64,000 nt of DNA from Candidatus Caenarcanales bacterium (GCA_013216135.1 JABSOS010000004.1:79939-143938); one strand, 5' to 3'. Counted from the first letter of the stretch, positions 3,598 to 25,789 are shown. Translations and numbers: made by a program. The notes: a model not told the origin generated them from the sequence alone.

Positions 3598-3642
3598 CTG
3601 TTAATCGATCGGTCACTGGTTCGAATCCAGTCTTGGGAGCCA
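3598..3642 (+). tRNA. tRNA-Asn(GTT) 3'-half fragment (anticodon loop CTGTTAA through T-arm, acceptor 3' strand and CCA); no 5' half, so att-site copy
   Basis: ctgttaa tcgat cggtc ACTGG TTCGAAT CCAGT CTTGGGA G CCA. Perfect T-arm and a GTT anticodon with U33/A37. No complementary acceptor strand TCCCAAG upstream. Near-identical copy at 25703-25752. Confidence 0.6.
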
Positions 3643-3737
3643 TTAAAAGAAAGCCCTGGTCGATTGATTGGGGCTTTTTTGTTTTTAAGGCTTTTAGTCA
3701 TTTTCAAAATATACCGTTAACACTATTAACACTAACT
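3635..3737 (+). repeat. About 100-bp direct repeat (tRNA 3' tip + terminator-like hairpin + flank), copy 1 of 2; partner 29521-29620
   Basis: gggagccattaaaagaaagccctgRtcgattgattggggcttttttgtttttaaggcttt, then catttYcaRcaaatatWccgtWaacaYtatWaacaYta, about 85% identical overall. Contains a GCCC..GGGC stem plus T-tract. Confidence 0.65.
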
Positions 3738-3778
3738 TTCAAAAATATATATTAACTGATATTTGGGTTTTGGAGGTG

Positions 3779-3804
3779 AATTATTATCCTGCGGGATAAT
3801 AATT
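3779..3804. repeat. 26-bp perfect palindrome aattattatccTGCGggataataatt (family copy P1)
   Basis: Exact inverted 11-nt arms. Identical to the copy at 18114-18139. Confidence 0.8.
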
Positions 3805-4148
3805 GAAATGTAATTTTATTTTTATTAGAATAAATGACTTACTTCTGGCTCTTCACCATTTAAGGGAAACTTATGTGAAGGTTTCTAATAAATTATCTAT
3901 GTATAAGCACTATAGGAATAGAAACTCATGGATTTTTTTTAAGCTCTTCCTCATCTGTTTTAAAGTTTCGTAATTGCAACACATTTTCAGCAGCACGGTA
4001 TCGATTATATAGAGATTCTCTTTATGTTTTTAAGGATATATATCCGTAAATTAAATAATTTTGTTTACCTAGCGTCAATGTGAAAGAGAGCAGTACCTAT
4101 AATTCCTCTGACTAAAGTAATTAATGCACCCGTTATATTTGAGCCCAT

Positions 4149-5369
4149 TTATTTTTTAATCTCTCCTTCTGTTGGAGACTTTTGATAAGCTCCCTCTTGA
4201 GAAGACACTTCTGAATCAGGGTCATTATTCTTATTAATGGTTTCATGAGACGAGGCTGGTTTATTATCTTTGTGAATATATTTGAAACTCTCATTACCTC
4301 TTTTTTGTTTCCCAAATAAAAAATGATAAATACCTTTAAAAGCCGAAGTTAAGATACCTTTCTTTTCCTCTTTCTTTTTAGGTAGATTATCTTCTCTTTC
4401 TTCACTTAGCTTTTTGTCTTTAAATAACTGGTAGTAACCTGAACTATTACCAAAAATTTGTGATTTTTGTACATAACCATTATTGTCAAACAAAGCGAAA
4501 CCAGAAATATGCCCACCTAAATACCATTCATTATTTCCTGCTATACGAGAAACCAAATTTTCTTTATGTTTTATTAGACCACCAGCTATAGACTTGTTTA
4601 TGTATAAAATTTTTACTTTTGAAGCTTTATCATCATCTTTTTTATCAGCTTTATAGACATAAGCTTGTGCTATTTCTAATAATATCTCAGAAAGCTTGGT
4701 TTTAACTAAGTCTTTGCTTTCTTGGCTTATATCTTGGCTTTCTGTAACTTTACTATTGATGCTAGACACTAGATCTAAAATACTTGATAATTCTCCCTTT
4801 GATAAAAAAATTATATTTTTTTTTGTAGAGTTAAGAACTTTAGCATTTAAATTTGTATTTTTATGTAATTGAGCTGCAACAATATAGGGAAGTAGATCTG
4901 CCTTAATATTTATTTCATTTGACTCAACAGTCTCTTTATTTATAACAATATCAAGAAGCTTATCTGATAAATCAATCGCTTTTTCAATCGCACCTAAACT
5001 AATAAAGGGTTCATTTATGTGAATTTGATCAAGAAATGGAAAATTTTTGGGTTCAATTTCTTCTACTGACTTTTTGAAAAGTTCTAACTTCTCAATAATA
5101 GATTGACCTTCAAATAAAGGCATTGAATTTGTTACTATTAAATCTTTGGTTTCTTTCAAACAATCTTCAAGAGACAAATTGATATCCTGGGCTGTTTTAC
5201 TTAAACTTTTATAAGCTAACATTTCCTGCATGATATTTTTGACATTAGTTTTTTGGATATTAATCTTTGGAGATTTTTTATTATCAGTAGATGCGTCTTC
5301 CTTATCTTTAGCCAAAGCATAAATAGGGGAACAAAAAAAGATTAATGTGAGGATAAATATAAATCTCAT
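4149..5369 (-). CDS. Secreted Lys/Glu-rich hypothetical protein (signal peptide)
   Basis: 406 aa. N-terminal MRFIFILTLIFFCSPIYALA. Charged low-complexity regions. Confidence 0.5.
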   Translation of the reverse strand: MRFIFILTLIFFCSPIYALAKDKEDASTDNKKSPKINIQKTNVKNIMQEMLAYKSLSKTAQDINLSLEDCLKETKDLIVTNSMPLFEGQSIIEKLELFKKSVEEIEPKNFPFLDQIHINEPFISLGAIEKAIDLSDKLLDIVINKETVESNEINIKADLLPYIVAAQLHKNTNLNAKVLNSTKKNIIFLSKGELSSILDLVSSINSKVTESQDISQESKDLVKTKLSEILLEIAQAYVYKADKKDDDKASKVKILYINKSIAGGLIKHKENLVSRIAGNNEWYLGGHISGFALFDNNGYVQKSQIFGNSSGYYQLFKDKKLSEEREDNLPKKKEEKKGILTSAFKGIYHFLFGKQKRGNESFKYIHKDNKPASSHETINKNNDPDSEVSSQEGAYQKSPTEGEIKK

Positions 5370-5523
5370 TAATATGTATTTTATCTAATAAGCTCTCTAA
5401 CTTATTTAAATATTGTGCTTATCTGGAGAACAATAGAGAAGTTATAATATCGCTTACGCTTTTATACAAATGTTTAAGTTATGTCTTGTGAGAAATCGTT
5501 CAATAATGTAAAATAATTCGATT

Positions 5524-23653: not shown

Positions 23654-24466
23654 CTACAAAATTTTATTTAAGTAAATAGGATTTCCTTTTGTGTAATAGA
23701 CCCCATAGTCTGCTTTTCTAGTATCGTCCATGTCTTGTATTAGGCTGAACTTATTTCTTACTAACTCAAAAAATTGTTCTTCTTTTCTTTCATACAGTCT
23801 TGATAAAGTCCATAAACAATAATCGACAATTTGAAGACCTATGTAATCATCTAATTCACCTTTGGTGATCTGATTCTCACTTTCATTTTTTATCCCATGG
23901 CTATTAAAACAATTCCTCATAGCTTTATTTAAAGCAACATCTAGAGAGTCATTTGAAAATGTTTTACCTCTAGCAGCGAATACTATATTGTTTTTTGCAT
24001 TTTTATGAAGTAACTCTTTAAAGAGTCTGGAGGTCATAGAAGAATAAATCTCTGCTTCTGTTAATTTATTACCAGTGTATTCAAATCTCGCTTTAGATTC
24101 ATCGATTAACTTAGATTTTCTCCTCACTATAGCAAAAACTTTAAAGTTAATTTTTTGTATAAGTTTAAATACTTCATTTCTTACTACTGGATGATCTTCG
24201 TTAGCATGAAATACTTTACTAGTAGATCTTTTGACAGACCTTAAATCTTGGAAAAATGGATTTGATAAAATCTCTTGACGGATTTTGTCAAAATCTTCTC
24301 TGTGAGACTCTGGACTTTCTGGAAACCTTGCAGCTCCAAGTATAAAGCTATCACTAACACCATTGGAGCCTAGCATTGATTTACCTCTCTTATTAAAACG
24401 AGTTAAATCACCTGTTTCATCTACGAAGAAATGTGCTTCTGGATTTAATTGATTACTTTTGCTCAC
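23654..24466 (-). CDS. DUF3800-like protein
   Basis: 270 aa. N-terminal FFVDETGD resembles the DUF3800 (F/Y)xDESG start motif. Confidence 0.45.
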   Translation of the reverse strand: MSKSNQLNPEAHFFVDETGDLTRFNKRGKSMLGSNGVSDSFILGAARFPESPESHREDFDKIRQEILSNPFFQDLRSVKRSTSKVFHANEDHPVVRNEVFKLIQKINFKVFAIVRRKSKLIDESKARFEYTGNKLTEAEIYSSMTSRLFKELLHKNAKNNIVFAARGKTFSNDSLDVALNKAMRNCFNSHGIKNESENQITKGELDDYIGLQIVDYCLWTLSRLYERKEEQFFELVRNKFSLIQDMDDTRKADYGVYYTKGNPIYLNKIL

Positions 24467-24476
24467 TAAACTTATA

Positions 24477-25682
24477 CTACCACTCCGCCATTGCCTCTAC
24501 GACTTCCTCAACTGTAGTCATACAATAACTCTGAGTAGTAGTAATATCTGCATGTCCGCAAGCTATTCTCAAATGATTTAAAGGTTTACCTTTTGCAGAA
24601 TTAATAGTGACAAATGATCTTCTTAAGCTATGGGGGCTTATATTCTTAAGTCCTGCTCCATCTGTGATTCTTCTAATCTTTCTTCCTAAAGCTACTACTT
24701 CAAAAGGCTTTTTAGCATTACTTAGAAAGCAGTTAGAGAAGTTATTATAAAACTCTAATCTAATTTTTAAGTAAGCTGTGAGCTGATTATATAATTCTTC
24801 ATTTATACCAACTATTCTATTTTTATTACCCTTTCCCAACCACACATAGATTCTTTTTCTATTAAGGTCCACATCTTCAAGTTTAAGATTACATAATTCA
24901 GAAGCTCTTAAACCTGTGTTAATAAGAAAGCAGATTAAAGTTTTATTCAGTAGCTTACCATAATCACTATTAAGACTAGTTTCTATATAGCTATAGATTT
25001 TTTGAAGCTCTTTTTCTGTGATAGAAGTCTTTTTTGCAGGGATAAAACGTTTTGGTTTTAGTTTCTTCATCTTATCTCTTAAAGATTCATCTTGAAACTC
25101 AAGCTCTATAAGATATTTAGAGAAGCTCATGATTGAATCATAGATATTTCTTTTGGTGCTGAATCTTTCAGGAGAAAAAGTACCTAAGACATTTCTTAGA
25201 TTATTGATAGAAATTATAGGTCTCTCTGGATAATTTGGAAGTGTGTCTAGATAAAGCTTAAAGTAGGTTCTATAAATTTCTACTGTTCTTGGTGATAGTG
25301 GTCTCCCTGTGAGTTTACCTGTCTTGCACCAATCTAGCCATTCTAGTGATAGTTCTTTTATTTTCTCTAAACTAGCTTCTCTAAGGTGGCTCTTGAATTT
25401 ATTAATTTCAGTTACTTTAATACCTTTAAAGTGTTTAGCTTTCCAAGTTTGGTATTTATCTTCTTCTATTACATAGGTTAATTTGTTTTGAGAGTTATAG
25501 ACTTGTTTACTTGGAAGAAAGCCTTCTCTGAAGTATTTGAGTATAGTATGTTTACCTAGCTTTAAGTCACGTGCAATATCTATTGCTGTCATATAATTCA
25601 TAACACCATCCTTTTTATTTTTGGTGTTAATGGTATTAATGATATTTTTTGAAGCTAGTTTGCCTATATCAACCTTATACAA
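24477..25682 (-). CDS. int: Tyrosine integrase (island integrase)
   Basis: NTGLRASEL, LGKGNKNRIV, HSLRRSFVT, CGHADITTTQSY. Start codon is 21 bp from the tRNA-Asn 3'-half copy B. Confidence 0.85.
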   Translation of the reverse strand: MYKVDIGKLASKNIINTINTKNKKDGVMNYMTAIDIARDLKLGKHTILKYFREGFLPSKQVYNSQNKLTYVIEEDKYQTWKAKHFKGIKVTEINKFKSHLREASLEKIKELSLEWLDWCKTGKLTGRPLSPRTVEIYRTYFKLYLDTLPNYPERPIISINNLRNVLGTFSPERFSTKRNIYDSIMSFSKYLIELEFQDESLRDKMKKLKPKRFIPAKKTSITEKELQKIYSYIETSLNSDYGKLLNKTLICFLINTGLRASELCNLKLEDVDLNRKRIYVWLGKGNKNRIVGINEELYNQLTAYLKIRLEFYNNFSNCFLSNAKKPFEVVALGRKIRRITDGAGLKNISPHSLRRSFVTINSAKGKPLNHLRIACGHADITTTQSYCMTTVEEVVEAMAEW

Positions 25683-25702
25683 GCAAATCTACGACTGGGC
25701 TA

Positions 25703-25752
25703 TCGGCTGTTAACCGATCGGTCACTGGTTCAAATCTAGTCTTGGGAGCCAT
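25703..25752 (+). tRNA. tRNA-Asn(GTT) 3' fragment (anticodon stem-loop through CCA); att-site copy B adjacent to int
   Basis: ATCGG CTGTTAA CCGAT CGGTC ACTGG TTCAAAT CTAGT CTTGGGA G CCA. 44/47 identity with copy A. No D-arm or acceptor 5' strand upstream. Confidence 0.6.
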
Positions 25753-25755
25753 TCA

Positions 25756-25789
25756 AATTAATTCAGGACTTTCGTCCTGAATTAATTTG
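25756..25789. other. Perfect 15-bp-stem hairpin aaattaattcaggac-tttc-gtcctgaattaattt at the island junction
   Basis: Directly follows the CCA of copy B. No T-tract. Confidence 0.5.

What the first reader, a model, noticed from the sequence alone, without database searches (positions are those of the whole stretch)
3598..25789. About 22-kb accessory/defense island bounded by two tRNA-Asn(GTT) 3'-half copies, with a tyrosine integrase at the right junction
Seen: positions 3598-3642 and 25703-25752 carry near-identical tRNA 3' parts (44/47). Each starts at the anticodon loop CTGTTAA and ends in CTTGGGA-G-CCA. Neither has a 5' half. A tyrosine recombinase gene starts 21 bp from copy B. Established: islands and prophages that target tRNA genes regenerate the tRNA 3' end. 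Their attL/attR identity block typically runs from the anticodon loop to the 3' end. Inference: the segment between A and B is an integrated element. It is densely packed with nuclease, RT and TA genes, so it is probably a defense island. The intact tRNA-Asn is not in the window. This suggests the element lies inside a tandem island array, or that the 5' half was lost. Copy B also retains the 5' anticodon-stem strand ATCGG, while copy A does not.
Basis: partly seen in the sequence, partly recalled or inferred. Interest (0 to 1): 0.6.

Follow-up and report, generated by a model that had tools for sequence, protein, structure and literature searches.

The report
tRNA-Asn integrase island in a Melainabacterium
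The 22-kb stretch is an ordinary kind of thing, a horizontally acquired island that a tyrosine integrase inserted next to a tRNA-Asn gene of an uncultured non-photosynthetic cyanobacterial relative, and it sits in a longer chain of such insertions and carries anti-phage genes.

Summary
Two + strand fragments, A (3598-3642) and B (25699-25751), are the 3' part of tRNA-Asn(GTT). Neither has a 5' half, and no tRNA gene is found in the window. The genome is a Candidatus Caenarcaniphilales (Melainabacteria) MAG.

The island reading is supported by comparison. In seven related MAGs, every partial tRNA-Asn copy with enough flanking sequence has an integrase homologue (48-63% identical). That gene starts about 100 nt from the copy and reads away from it, exactly as at B. 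The intact tRNA-Asn lies at the far end of an 8-10 kb element. One sibling element was assembled as an 8.5-kb circle carrying attP.

The window holds a chain rather than a single island. A third copy, C, lies at 29521-29620, and a fourth, Z, lies 3.9 kb left of the window.

The cargo includes a DRT10 system (UG17 reverse transcriptase plus SLATT), a second reverse transcriptase next to a SIR2-like gene, a staphylococcal-type nuclease and a DUF3800 protein.

The intact tRNA was not located in this genome. This is a new member of a known kind, of modest interest.

The parts
3598..3642 (+). Copy A: tRNA-Asn(GTT) positions 31-75, from the anticodon loop to CCA. It has one substitution (C to T at 3605) and no 5' half. 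I read it as the left att copy of the A-B interval.
   Evidence: no tRNA by ARAGORN
3643..3804 (+). P'-type arm. It contains an intrinsic terminator (3647-3680), the motif pair GTTAACAC/ATTAACAC (3716-3732) and the palindrome TTATTATCCTGCGGGATAATAA (3781-3802). It is 97% identical to the arm after copy Z. The arm after C matches Z exactly over its first 52 nt (29529-29580); C as a whole (29521-29620) is 85% identical to A's 3635-3734.
4149..8091 (.). Four ORFs with no recognisable family: 406 aa (-), 149 aa (+), 304 aa (-) and 324 aa (+). This is low-GC cargo.
8188..10357 (+). DRT10 defence system in the RT-SLATT arrangement. It comprises the UG17 reverse transcriptase (8188-9594), a 133-nt structured spacer that is a candidate ncRNA (9595-9727), and a SLATT_5 effector (9728-10357).
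   Evidence: PADLOC RT_UG17 9.5e-107 and RTasSLATT 1.2e-30; Pfam SLATT_5; fold z = -2.0; bioRxiv 10.64898/2026.04.29.721553
11072..15788 (+). Two-gene module: 273 aa, then 1272 aa with TPR repeats and a weak PIN-like region. It is flanked by 27-nt direct repeats at 10915 and 15811.
   Evidence: (D17)
16011..16517 (+). Staphylococcal-nuclease-like protein.
   Evidence: Pfam SNase 1.8e-10
18693..19709 (+). Second tyrosine recombinase (int2, 338 aa). It is the counterpart of the tRNA-proximal recombinase in related elements, and its catalytic residues are conserved.
19742..22020 (+). Overlapping gene pair: a weak SIR2-like protein (19742-20755) and a reverse transcriptase (20749-22020) that is closest to group II intron RTs. 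No intron RNA was detected.
23654..24466 (-). DUF3800 protein. Its neighbourhood with the integrase is conserved in the related elements examined.
24477..25601 (-). Tyrosine integrase (374 aa). It has an N-terminal HTH_17-like region, and R232, K257/K260, H324-x-x-R327, H350 and Y359 are invariant across the family. It is transcribed away from copy B.
25602..25698 (.). P arm between the integrase start and the core. It contains GTGTTAATGGTATTAAT (25624-25641), an inverted 15/17 match to the motif pair in the P' arm.
   Evidence: same geometry in the verified attP of L010 and in L026 and L004
25699..25751 (+). Copy B: tRNA-Asn positions 23-75 with two substitutions in the T arm. I read it as the attR of the integrase-bearing element.
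25752..25791 (.). 18-bp perfect hairpin directly after copy B, different from the terminator that follows Z, A and C. I read it as the right boundary of the island.
29521..29620 (+). Copy C: the last 8 nt of the tRNA, the same terminator and about 60 nt of the same arm. It lies beyond metE-metR. The 21 nt to its left keep a T-arm-like register (17/29 matches).
   Evidence: (D2)

Best explanation
The A-B interval is a horizontally acquired island placed at the tRNA-Asn(GTT) locus by a site-specific tyrosine integrase. It is one link of a chain of such insertions.

Shown by the sequence and by related genomes:
- The integrase (24477-25601, minus strand) belongs to a family found in Melainabacteria MAGs.
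- Elements of this family sit with the intact tRNA at one end.
- They carry a second recombinase near that end.
- DUF3800 and the integrase lie at the other end.
- The integrase starts about 100 nt from a displaced copy of the tRNA 3' part.

Inferred mechanism: the circular element carries an attP in which a 45-53-nt copy of the tRNA 3' part, followed by its own terminator, is flanked by an inverted repeat. The integrase recombines this with the tRNA gene. The tRNA is rebuilt from element sequence at the left junction. The old 3' part is pushed to the right junction, which is copy B. Later arrivals at the rebuilt tRNA push earlier ones outwards and leave internal partial copies (Z, A).

The interval now carries mostly defence cargo: DRT10, a SIR2-like gene with a reverse transcriptase, a nuclease and DUF3800. 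It has no replication module. The integrase and the matching arms at B (left) and at A or Z (right) could still excise it. This last point is inference.
For: 1. The copies are real and not chance.

2. The organism and integrase family are identified. There are 103 homologues, with names from Caenarcaniphilales and Melainabacteria MAGs.

3. L004 (integrase 63% identical) has an intact tRNA-Asn at 19264-19338. Then come int2, DUF3854, DUF3987, DUF3800 and the integrase at 10001. A partial copy follows at 9850-9893, and another at 7326-7350. L005 has the same layout.

4. A scan of 185,579 species genomes with the 45-nt 3' part gave 11 hits in 6 MAGs. Five MAGs have one intact and one partial copy; the sixth has only the intact copy. 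All five partial copies lie next to an integrase homologue (48-49% identical) that reads away from the copy. In four of them the gene starts about 110 nt away. The intact copies with enough downstream sequence are followed by an int2-like gene at 0.6-1.9 kb.

5. A sibling element at tRNA-Lys (integrase 54% identical) was assembled as an 8,623-nt contig with a 141-nt terminal overlap. It is circularly permuted against the integrated copy and joins through a 50-nt core equal to the tRNA 3' end.

6. All catalytic residues are conserved.

7. An inverted repeat flanks the core in the verified attP (14 nt perfect), in L026 (31 nt) and in L004. The window has the same geometry between the B-left arm and the A-right arm (15/17).

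8. The left edge of identity differs between junctions: tRNA position 30 at Z, 31 at A, 23 at B. Substitutions rise outwards: 0 in Z, 1 in A, 2 in B, and only 8 nt surviving in C. This fits separate serial events.

9. Composition: 3.6-16 kb has 28% GC and a tetranucleotide correlation to the local core of 0.81, against 0.90-0.91 for control chunks.

10. No capsid, terminase, relaxase or secretion genes were found.
Against: - No intact tRNA-Asn was found in the window or in the 21 kb to its left. The scaffold ends inside a phage-like block.
- No empty site or excised circle of this particular element was found. All other assemblies with these genes come from the same population.
- A-B is 22 kb against 8-10 kb in relatives. 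Only the integrase, DUF3800 and int2 are shared.
- Copies Z, A and C carry almost the same downstream arm. The simplest accretion model does not predict this.
- The Z-A and B-C segments carry housekeeping-type genes and have near-native composition.
- The arm motif match is only marginally significant (E about 0.03).
Confidence: 0.78

Rival explanations
1. The interval is composite. The true integrase element is only about 7.8 kb, roughly 17.9-25.75 kb (int2 through the integrase), as in relatives. The 14.3 kb at 3803-18115 (DRT10, the TPR/PIN giant, the nuclease and others) is separate material inserted at the 22-nt palindrome of the element's P' arm. The palindrome would have been duplicated in the process, possibly by a recombinase acting on these 11-6-11 sites.
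For: - The palindrome with the same centre (CTGCGG) and the same orientation sits at 3781 and at 18116. Further copies lie at 6967 and 18581, and none lies right of B.
- In Z, A and L013 the palindrome lies 139 nt after the tRNA end. Applying that spacing to 18116 puts an ancestral tRNA end 716 nt before int2. This matches the 631-783 nt seen in L012 and L014.
- GC shifts at about 16 kb.
- Only int2, DUF3800 and the integrase are shared with relatives.
Against: - No such palindrome occurs near int2 or the tRNA in six related loci. The site is not a family feature.
- Similarity around the copies stops at the palindrome itself.
- The GC shift (about 16 kb) does not coincide with the palindrome (18.1 kb).
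- The palindromes could equally be operators or terminators.
Confidence: 0.3
2. The interval is a fossil island. The fragments and the integrase are leftovers of old integrations, and the segment is now a fixed part of the chromosome that no longer moves.
For: - Copies A and B carry substitutions that would weaken a tRNA.
- The replication module of relatives is missing.
- The intact tRNA is not adjacent.
- No circle or empty site was found.
Against: - Both recombinase genes are full length with all catalytic residues. In several relatives int2 is broken.
- The first 7 nt and the next 17 nt of the core are identical in A and B.
- Matching arm motifs are retained.
Confidence: 0.3
3. No site-specific integration took place. 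The repeated tRNA fragments arose by segmental duplication or homologous recombination of the tRNA downstream region.
For: Z and A form a 206-nt direct repeat of 97% identity that extends well past the tRNA end.
Against: - Each junction starts its identity at or just before the anticodon loop, as att cores do, and at three different positions.
- B has a different downstream sequence.
- The same integrase-to-core geometry recurs in seven other genomes, and a circle with attP exists.
Confidence: 0.05
4. The interval is a prophage, a phage satellite or a conjugative element.
For: It has an integrase and flanking att-like repeats. Relatives carry primase-helicase genes (DUF3987, D5_N) like satellites. 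A phage-like block (DnaB, ERF, SSB) lies left of Z.
Against: No capsid, portal, terminase, tail, relaxase, coupling-protein or secretion genes, and no primase, were found in A-B by Pfam, NCBIfam, PHROGs or PADLOC. No close integrase relative occurs in 2.9 million viral contigs.
Confidence: 0.04

Closest known systems
Classical tRNA-gene genomic islands and integrative elements with a tyrosine integrase (P4-like islands; tRNA att-site use as reviewed by Williams 2002, from my own knowledge)
   Same: It has a tyrosine recombinase with the full catalytic set. The att core runs from the anticodon loop to the CCA end. The element supplies a replacement 3' part and a terminator. A displaced partial copy lies at the far junction. 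Several islands share one tRNA.
   Different: The integrase sits at the end far from the intact tRNA and reads inwards. A second recombinase sits at the tRNA-proximal end. The host is an uncultured Melainabacterium. The intact tRNA is not adjacent here.
Tycheposons and tRNA-seeded islands of Prochlorococcus (Hackl et al., bioRxiv 10.1101/2020.12.28.424599)
   Same: Small tRNA-targeting elements (about 10 kb) carry a tyrosine recombinase, a primase/helicase and cargo. Repeated integration pushes older material outwards. Partial tRNAs are scattered through the island. Integrase-less stretches of ordinary-looking genes lie between partial tRNAs, explained there as co-transferred flanking material.
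   Different: Homology of this integrase to tycheposon recombinases was not tested. The window element has no replication module. The target here is tRNA-Asn, which is not among the seven Prochlorococcus targets. The host is non-photosynthetic.
CIME/ICE accretion arrays (cis-mobilisable elements flanked by att sites without their own integrase; from my own knowledge)
   Same: Z-A and B-C are att-flanked segments without an integrase, next to an integrase-bearing segment.
   Different: There is no conjugation machinery anywhere in the array.
DRT10 (UG17 reverse transcriptase + SLATT + ncRNA) defence system
   Same: The cargo pair at 8188-10357 matches RT_UG17 at 9.5e-107 and the RT-associated SLATT. 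It is in the described RT-SLATT order with a structured spacer.
   Different: The spacer is 133 nt rather than about 200 nt. The ncRNA is not verified. A Melainabacterial host has not been described for this system in the papers read.

Membership tests
tRNA-targeting tyrosine-integrase island | Tyrosine recombinase with the catalytic R-K-H-R-H/W-Y residues | tested here: met
   R232, K257/260, H324, R327, H350 and Y359 are invariant in 8 aligned sequences. XerA/XerC/XerD structures match at up to 4e-23.
tRNA-targeting tyrosine-integrase island | Direct repeats of the tRNA 3' part at both ends | tested here: met
   A and B match 44/47, with 0.00 matches expected by chance.
tRNA-targeting tyrosine-integrase island | Intact target tRNA at one junction | tested here: not met
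   No tRNA was found in the window or in the 21 kb to its left. The feature is met in relatives L004, L005 and L012-L015. There is indirect k-mer evidence that the canonical tRNA-Asn exists in the source sample.
tRNA-targeting tyrosine-integrase island | Evidence of excision or an empty site | tested here: inconclusive
   A circular attP form was found only for a sibling element. None was found for this element.
Tycheposon | Integration at a tRNA with partial tRNA repeats and serial accretion | tested here: met
   Four copies (Z, A, B, C) lie in one orientation.
Tycheposon | Replication module (primase/helicase) beside the integrase | tested here: not met
   None is present in A-B. It is present in relatives as DUF3987/DUF3854 or D5_N/DUF5906.
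Tycheposon | Recombinase belonging to the tycheposon integrase families | not tested
Prophage | Capsid, portal, terminase and tail genes | tested here: not met
   No such hits were found in Pfam, PHROGs or NCBIfam.
Integrative conjugative or mobilisable element | Relaxase, coupling protein, type IV secretion genes | tested here: not met
   No such Pfam or NCBIfam hits were found in A-B.
Defence island | At least one recognised anti-phage system, clustered with other candidates | tested here: met
   DRT10 is present (RT_UG17 9.5e-107 plus RTasSLATT 1.2e-30). Other candidates are DUF3800_VII at 8e-20, a weak SIR2 hit beside a second RT, and SNase.
DRT10 (UG17) | UG17-class RT with adjacent SLATT_5 protein | tested here: met
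DRT10 (UG17) | Structured ncRNA upstream of the SLATT gene | tested here: inconclusive
   The spacer folds into a multi-stem structure with a basal stem, z = -2.04, and 6 of 200 shuffles fold as well. No comparative test was made.

The most novel reading that the evidence does not exclude
The Melainabacterial tRNA-Asn locus may be worked by a previously undescribed, tycheposon-like family of twin-recombinase elements. These elements would not only deliver defence genes but also shuttle integrase-less blocks of ordinary genes (corA-mscS-hsp20-degP-fic; metE-metR) between partial tRNA copies. Within the island, the dif/lox-like 11-6-11 palindromes (3781, 6967, 18116, 18581) would be recombination sites at which the second recombinase inserts or swaps cargo cassettes.
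Probability: 0.12. Interest if true: 0.6.

Novelty: new member of a known kind. Interest (0 to 1): 0.3.

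Why it matters
It documents how accessory and anti-phage genes enter the genomes of Melainabacteria, the uncultured non-photosynthetic sister group of cyanobacteria. My one full-text search for mobile elements or genomic islands in this group found nothing relevant. 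The locus gives a concrete integrase, att core and arm layout that could be tested or used as an integration tool. The chain of partial tRNA copies resembles the island-building process proposed for marine Prochlorococcus, which suggests that process is older or more widespread. In itself the finding is a standard tRNA-linked island.

Tried and rejected
- Search for the intact tRNA-Asn. I walked 21 kb left of the window through two protein look-ups. I found a fourth partial copy, then a phage-like block, then the scaffold end, but no tRNA.
- Metagenome scan with the tRNA end plus terminator. It gave one contig (L026), again a partial copy next to an integrase.
- Viral contig scans. There was no close integrase relative; the best hit was 33% identical.
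- Exact-protein look-ups for variant strains. These returned only the same population. L003 looked like a variant but is identical sequence.
- Rfam. Nothing reached gathering score. The weak hits are the terminator or chance: SpF41 at 32 bits, and a fluoride riboswitch at 19.9 bits against a gathering score of 34.
- Palindromes as a family-wide recombinase site. No equivalents were found in six related loci.
- Tetranucleotide test for a foreign origin of Z-A and B-C. Both fall within or at the edge of the native range, so the test is uninformative.
- Pfam, NCBIfam and PHROGs on the unknown ORFs. No useful names came back.
- The 90-aa ORF between two palindromes has a low-complexity translation and is probably not a gene.

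Full report
**1. Observation**

The two sequences are present as described. Copy A (3598-3642) reads CTGTTAATCGATCGGTCACTGGTTCGAATCCAGTCTTGGGAGCCA. Copy B reads GCTATCGGCTGTTAACCGATCGGTCACTGGTTCAAATCTAGTCTTGGGAGCCA (25699-25751). I aligned both to an intact tRNA-Asn(GTT) from a related genome (L004). A covers tRNA positions 31-75 with one mismatch. B covers positions 23-75 with two mismatches.

A 25-nt pattern for the T arm and acceptor end matches only these two places, with none expected in 100 shuffles. ARAGORN finds no tRNA in the window. Rfam finds nothing at gathering score. The tRNA model scores B at only 19.4 bits. Both are therefore 3' fragments without a 5' half.

One stated detail needs correction. 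The 21-nt gap to the recombinase gene comes from the longest ORF, which starts at TTG 25682. All homologues begin at the ATG at 25601 (374 aa), and the database copy begins at 25592. The real gap to B is about 97 nt.

**2. Organism and gene content**

The integrase is 100% identical to a protein of a Candidatus Caenarcaniphilales MAG (Melainabacteria/Vampirovibrionia) on a 358-kb contig. The gene order from left to right is as follows.

| Position | Feature |
|---|---|
| left of A | two HSP20, a DegP-like protease, VbhA and Fic |
| 3598-3642 | copy A |
| 4149-8091 | four unknown ORFs |
| 8188-9594, 9728-10357 | reverse transcriptase and a SLATT_5 protein |
| 11072-15788 | a 273-aa and a 1272-aa TPR/PIN-like pair |
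| 16011-16517 | a staphylococcal-type nuclease |
| 16828-17994 | a 388-aa unknown ORF |
| 18693-19709 | second tyrosine recombinase (int2) |
| 19742-22020 | a 337-aa protein overlapping a second reverse transcriptase |
| 22137-23413 | two unknown ORFs |
| 23654-24466 | DUF3800 |
| 24477-25601 | the integrase |
| 25699-25751 | copy B |
| right of B | metE and a LysR regulator |

PADLOC assigns the first RT to UG17 (9.5e-107) and its neighbour to the RT-associated SLATT (1.2e-30). UG17 with SLATT and an ncRNA is the validated DRT10 defence system. The RT-then-SLATT order with an intergenic ncRNA is one of its described arrangements. The 133-nt spacer folds into a multi-stem structure, z = -2.0.

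The 337-aa protein hits SIR2 models only weakly (5e-8). The second RT is closest to group II intron RTs (9e-18), but no intron RNA is detected. DUF3800 matches the retron type VII effector model (8e-20).

The defence-island label therefore holds. I found no toxin-antitoxin pair inside A-B; the VbhA-Fic pair is just outside it.

**3. Comparative test of the island reading**

Contexts of integrase homologues were fetched.

- **L004 (63% identical).** The intact tRNA-Asn lies at 19264-19338. It is followed by small ORFs, int2, DUF3854, DUF3987, other genes, DUF3800 and the integrase. A partial tRNA copy then lies 108 nt from the integrase start. Beyond an AbiE module there is another, shorter partial copy.
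- **L005 (56%).** This is laid out the same way, with a D5_N primase.
- **L007-L009 (54%).** These carry the same element next to tRNA-Lys(TTT).

A scan of one genome per species (185,579 species) with the 45-nt fragment gave 11 hits in six Melainabacteria MAGs. Five of them have one intact tRNA-Asn and one partial copy; the sixth has only the intact gene. All five partial copies lie beside an integrase homologue (48-49% identical) that reads away from the copy, and in four the gene starts about 110 nt away. Three intact copies with enough downstream sequence are followed by an int2-like gene 0.6-1.9 kb away. One JGI metagenome contig shows the same integrase-to-core layout.

This is the geometry of copy B and its integrase. 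B is therefore the right attachment site of an element of this family.

**4. Evidence that the family moves**

Contig L010 (8,623 nt) has a 141-nt terminal overlap, so it is circular. It is circularly permuted relative to the integrated copy in L007. The two halves join through a 50-nt segment that occurs at both ends of the integrated copy and equals the 3' 45 nt of tRNA-Lys plus 5 nt. This is an excised form carrying attP.

In that attP a perfect 14-nt inverted repeat brackets the core. L026 has a 31-nt inverted repeat in the same position, and L004 has an interrupted one of about 27 nt. In the window, the arm between the integrase and B holds GTGTTAATGGTATTAAT (25624-25641). The arm after A holds the inverted counterpart GTTAACACTATTAACAC (3716-3732), a 15/17 match. 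The distances from the core are comparable. By itself this match is only marginally significant, with E about 0.03.

The integrase and int2 keep all catalytic residues. In several relatives int2 is broken by frameshifts.

**5. The window holds a chain, not a single island**

A third copy, C (29521-29620), consists of the last 8 nt of the tRNA, the same terminator and about 60 nt of the same downstream arm. The same genome, read 9.5 kb further left (L001), holds a fourth copy, Z. It covers tRNA positions 30-75 with no mismatch. It is followed by 159 nt that are 97% identical to the arm after A.

The order is therefore:

1. a phage-like block (DnaB, ERF, SSB and many small ORFs)
2. Z
3. corA, two mscS, merR, two hsp20, degP, vbhA-fic
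4. A
5. the 22-kb island
6. B
7. metE-metR
8. C

The identity blocks begin at different tRNA positions: 30 at Z, 31 at A and 23 at B. Decay increases from left to right: 0, 1 and 2 substitutions, then only 8 nt surviving in C. This fits separate, successive integrations at a tRNA that lies further to the left.

That intact tRNA was not reached. The scaffold ends 1.97 kb left of the DnaB gene without any tRNA sequence.

There is indirect evidence that the tRNA exists. The Logan assemblies of the source samples break exactly 30 nt after the last copy-specific base at Z, A, B and C. This is expected for 31-mer graphs; that Logan uses k = 31 is from my own knowledge. The breaks at B (25728) and at Z require another sequence in the sample carrying GCTATCGGCTGTTAACCGATCGGTCACTGG and GCTGTTAACCGATCGGTCACTGGTTCGAAT. 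The canonical intact tRNA-Asn has both strings. Z, A, B and C do not.

**6. One element or two layers**

Relatives are 8-10 kb and share only the integrase, DUF3800 and int2 with the window. The primase module is replaced here by the SIR2-like/RT pair. GC is 28% from A to 16 kb and 31% from 16 kb to B. The left part deviates from the local tetranucleotide pattern, with a correlation of 0.81 against 0.90-0.91 for controls.

A 22-nt palindrome, TTATTATCC-NNN-GGGATAATAA, can be read as 11-nt arms around a 6-nt centre. It lies 139 nt after the tRNA end in Z, in A and in the relative L013. It lies again at 6967, 18116 and 18581, always between genes, and never right of B or in the phage-like block.

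The copies at 3781 and 18116 share centre and orientation. If the 18116 copy marks an older arm, the ancestral element would have been about 7.8 kb, with int2 716 nt from the tRNA end, as in L012 and L014. The 14.3 kb between the two palindromes would then be a later insertion. Relatives lack such palindromes, so this stays a hypothesis.

There is no further core copy between A and B. A-B is therefore the smallest att-bounded unit that contains the integrase.

**7. Points the simple model does not explain**

Z, A and C carry nearly the same downstream arm. The intact tRNA-Asn of the relative L013 has it too, with homology to Z continuing past the palindrome. The Z-A and B-C segments hold housekeeping-type genes and have near-native composition.

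The tycheposon model for Prochlorococcus islands offers a fitting account. There, elements excise imprecisely, carry neighbouring host DNA into a new cell and leave it behind between partial tRNAs. I did not test this here.

**8. Comparison and verdict**

The interval works like a classical tRNA-linked integrase island. In its chain structure it resembles tycheposon-built islands and att-flanked, integrase-less segments in accretion arrays. It is not a prophage, satellite or conjugative element by gene content. No close integrase relative is present among viral contigs.

The element family, with twin recombinases, DUF3800 and an inverted repeat around the core in Melainabacteria, did not turn up in a full-text search. 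The kind of system is nevertheless well known.

Novelty: a new member of a known kind. Interest is modest.

Noticed in passing
window 29521-29620: A third tRNA-Asn remnant (C). It has only GGGAGCCA plus the same terminator and arm as after A and Z, and it lies beyond metE-metR. The 21 nt to its left keep a T-arm-like register (17/29). This makes metE-metR an att-flanked, integrase-less segment with 39% GC.
   Followed up: partly
L001 5597-5800 (3.9 kb left of the window start): A fourth copy (Z), identical to the functional tRNA 3' part. Together with A it forms a 206-nt direct repeat of 97% identity. The 7.5 kb between them holds corA, two mscS, merR, two hsp20, degP and vbhA-fic, and has no integrase.
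   Followed up: yes
window 3781-3802, 6967-6988, 18116-18137, 18581-18602 (degenerate at 10919-10940 and 15815-15836): A perfect 22-nt palindrome, TTATTATCC-NNN-GGGATAATAA, found only inside the island chain. There are 12 strand matches against 0.04 expected. It is always intergenic. It is also present 143 nt after the intact tRNA-Asn of the relative L013, but absent near int2 in six other relatives. It could be an operator or a dif/lox-like recombination site; I could not decide which.
   Followed up: partly
window 10915-10941 and 15811-15837: 27-nt direct repeats (93% identical) bracket the two-gene module of a 273-aa protein and a 1272-aa TPR/PIN-like protein. The module looks like an inserted cassette.
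   Followed up: no
window 9595-9727: The spacer between the UG17 RT and the SLATT gene folds into a multi-stem RNA closed by a basal stem (z = -2.0) and contains ACU motifs. It is a candidate DRT10 ncRNA.
   Followed up: partly
window 19742-22020: A gene for a weak SIR2-like protein overlaps by 7 nt a 423-aa reverse transcriptase that is closest to group II intron RTs. No intron RNA is detectable. The pair occupies the place of the primase module of related elements and may be an undescribed RT-based defence pair.
   Followed up: partly
L027 1-14800 and L028 1-13238 (left of copy Z): A phage-like block of more than 30 small same-strand ORFs with a DnaB-type helicase, ERF recombinase and SSB. 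It ends at copy Z. The scaffold stops 1.97 kb left of the helicase gene.
   Followed up: partly
L007 9184-9218, 9406-9440, 9629-9663: Three extra 35-nt partial tRNA-Lys copies at 222-223-nt spacing lie just outside the attR of the sibling element. They overlap small called ORFs.
   Followed up: no
window 2767-3568: A VbhA-like antitoxin and a Fic toxin (PADLOC PDC-S04, 6.7e-73) end 30 nt before copy A. This is the only toxin-antitoxin-like pair near the island, and it lies outside A-B.
   Followed up: partly
window 36673-36831 vs 39352-39507, and 40432-40497 vs 40900-40965: Other direct repeats of 82-94% identity occur in the presumed core region to the right. They are unrelated to the tRNA copies.
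   Followed up: no
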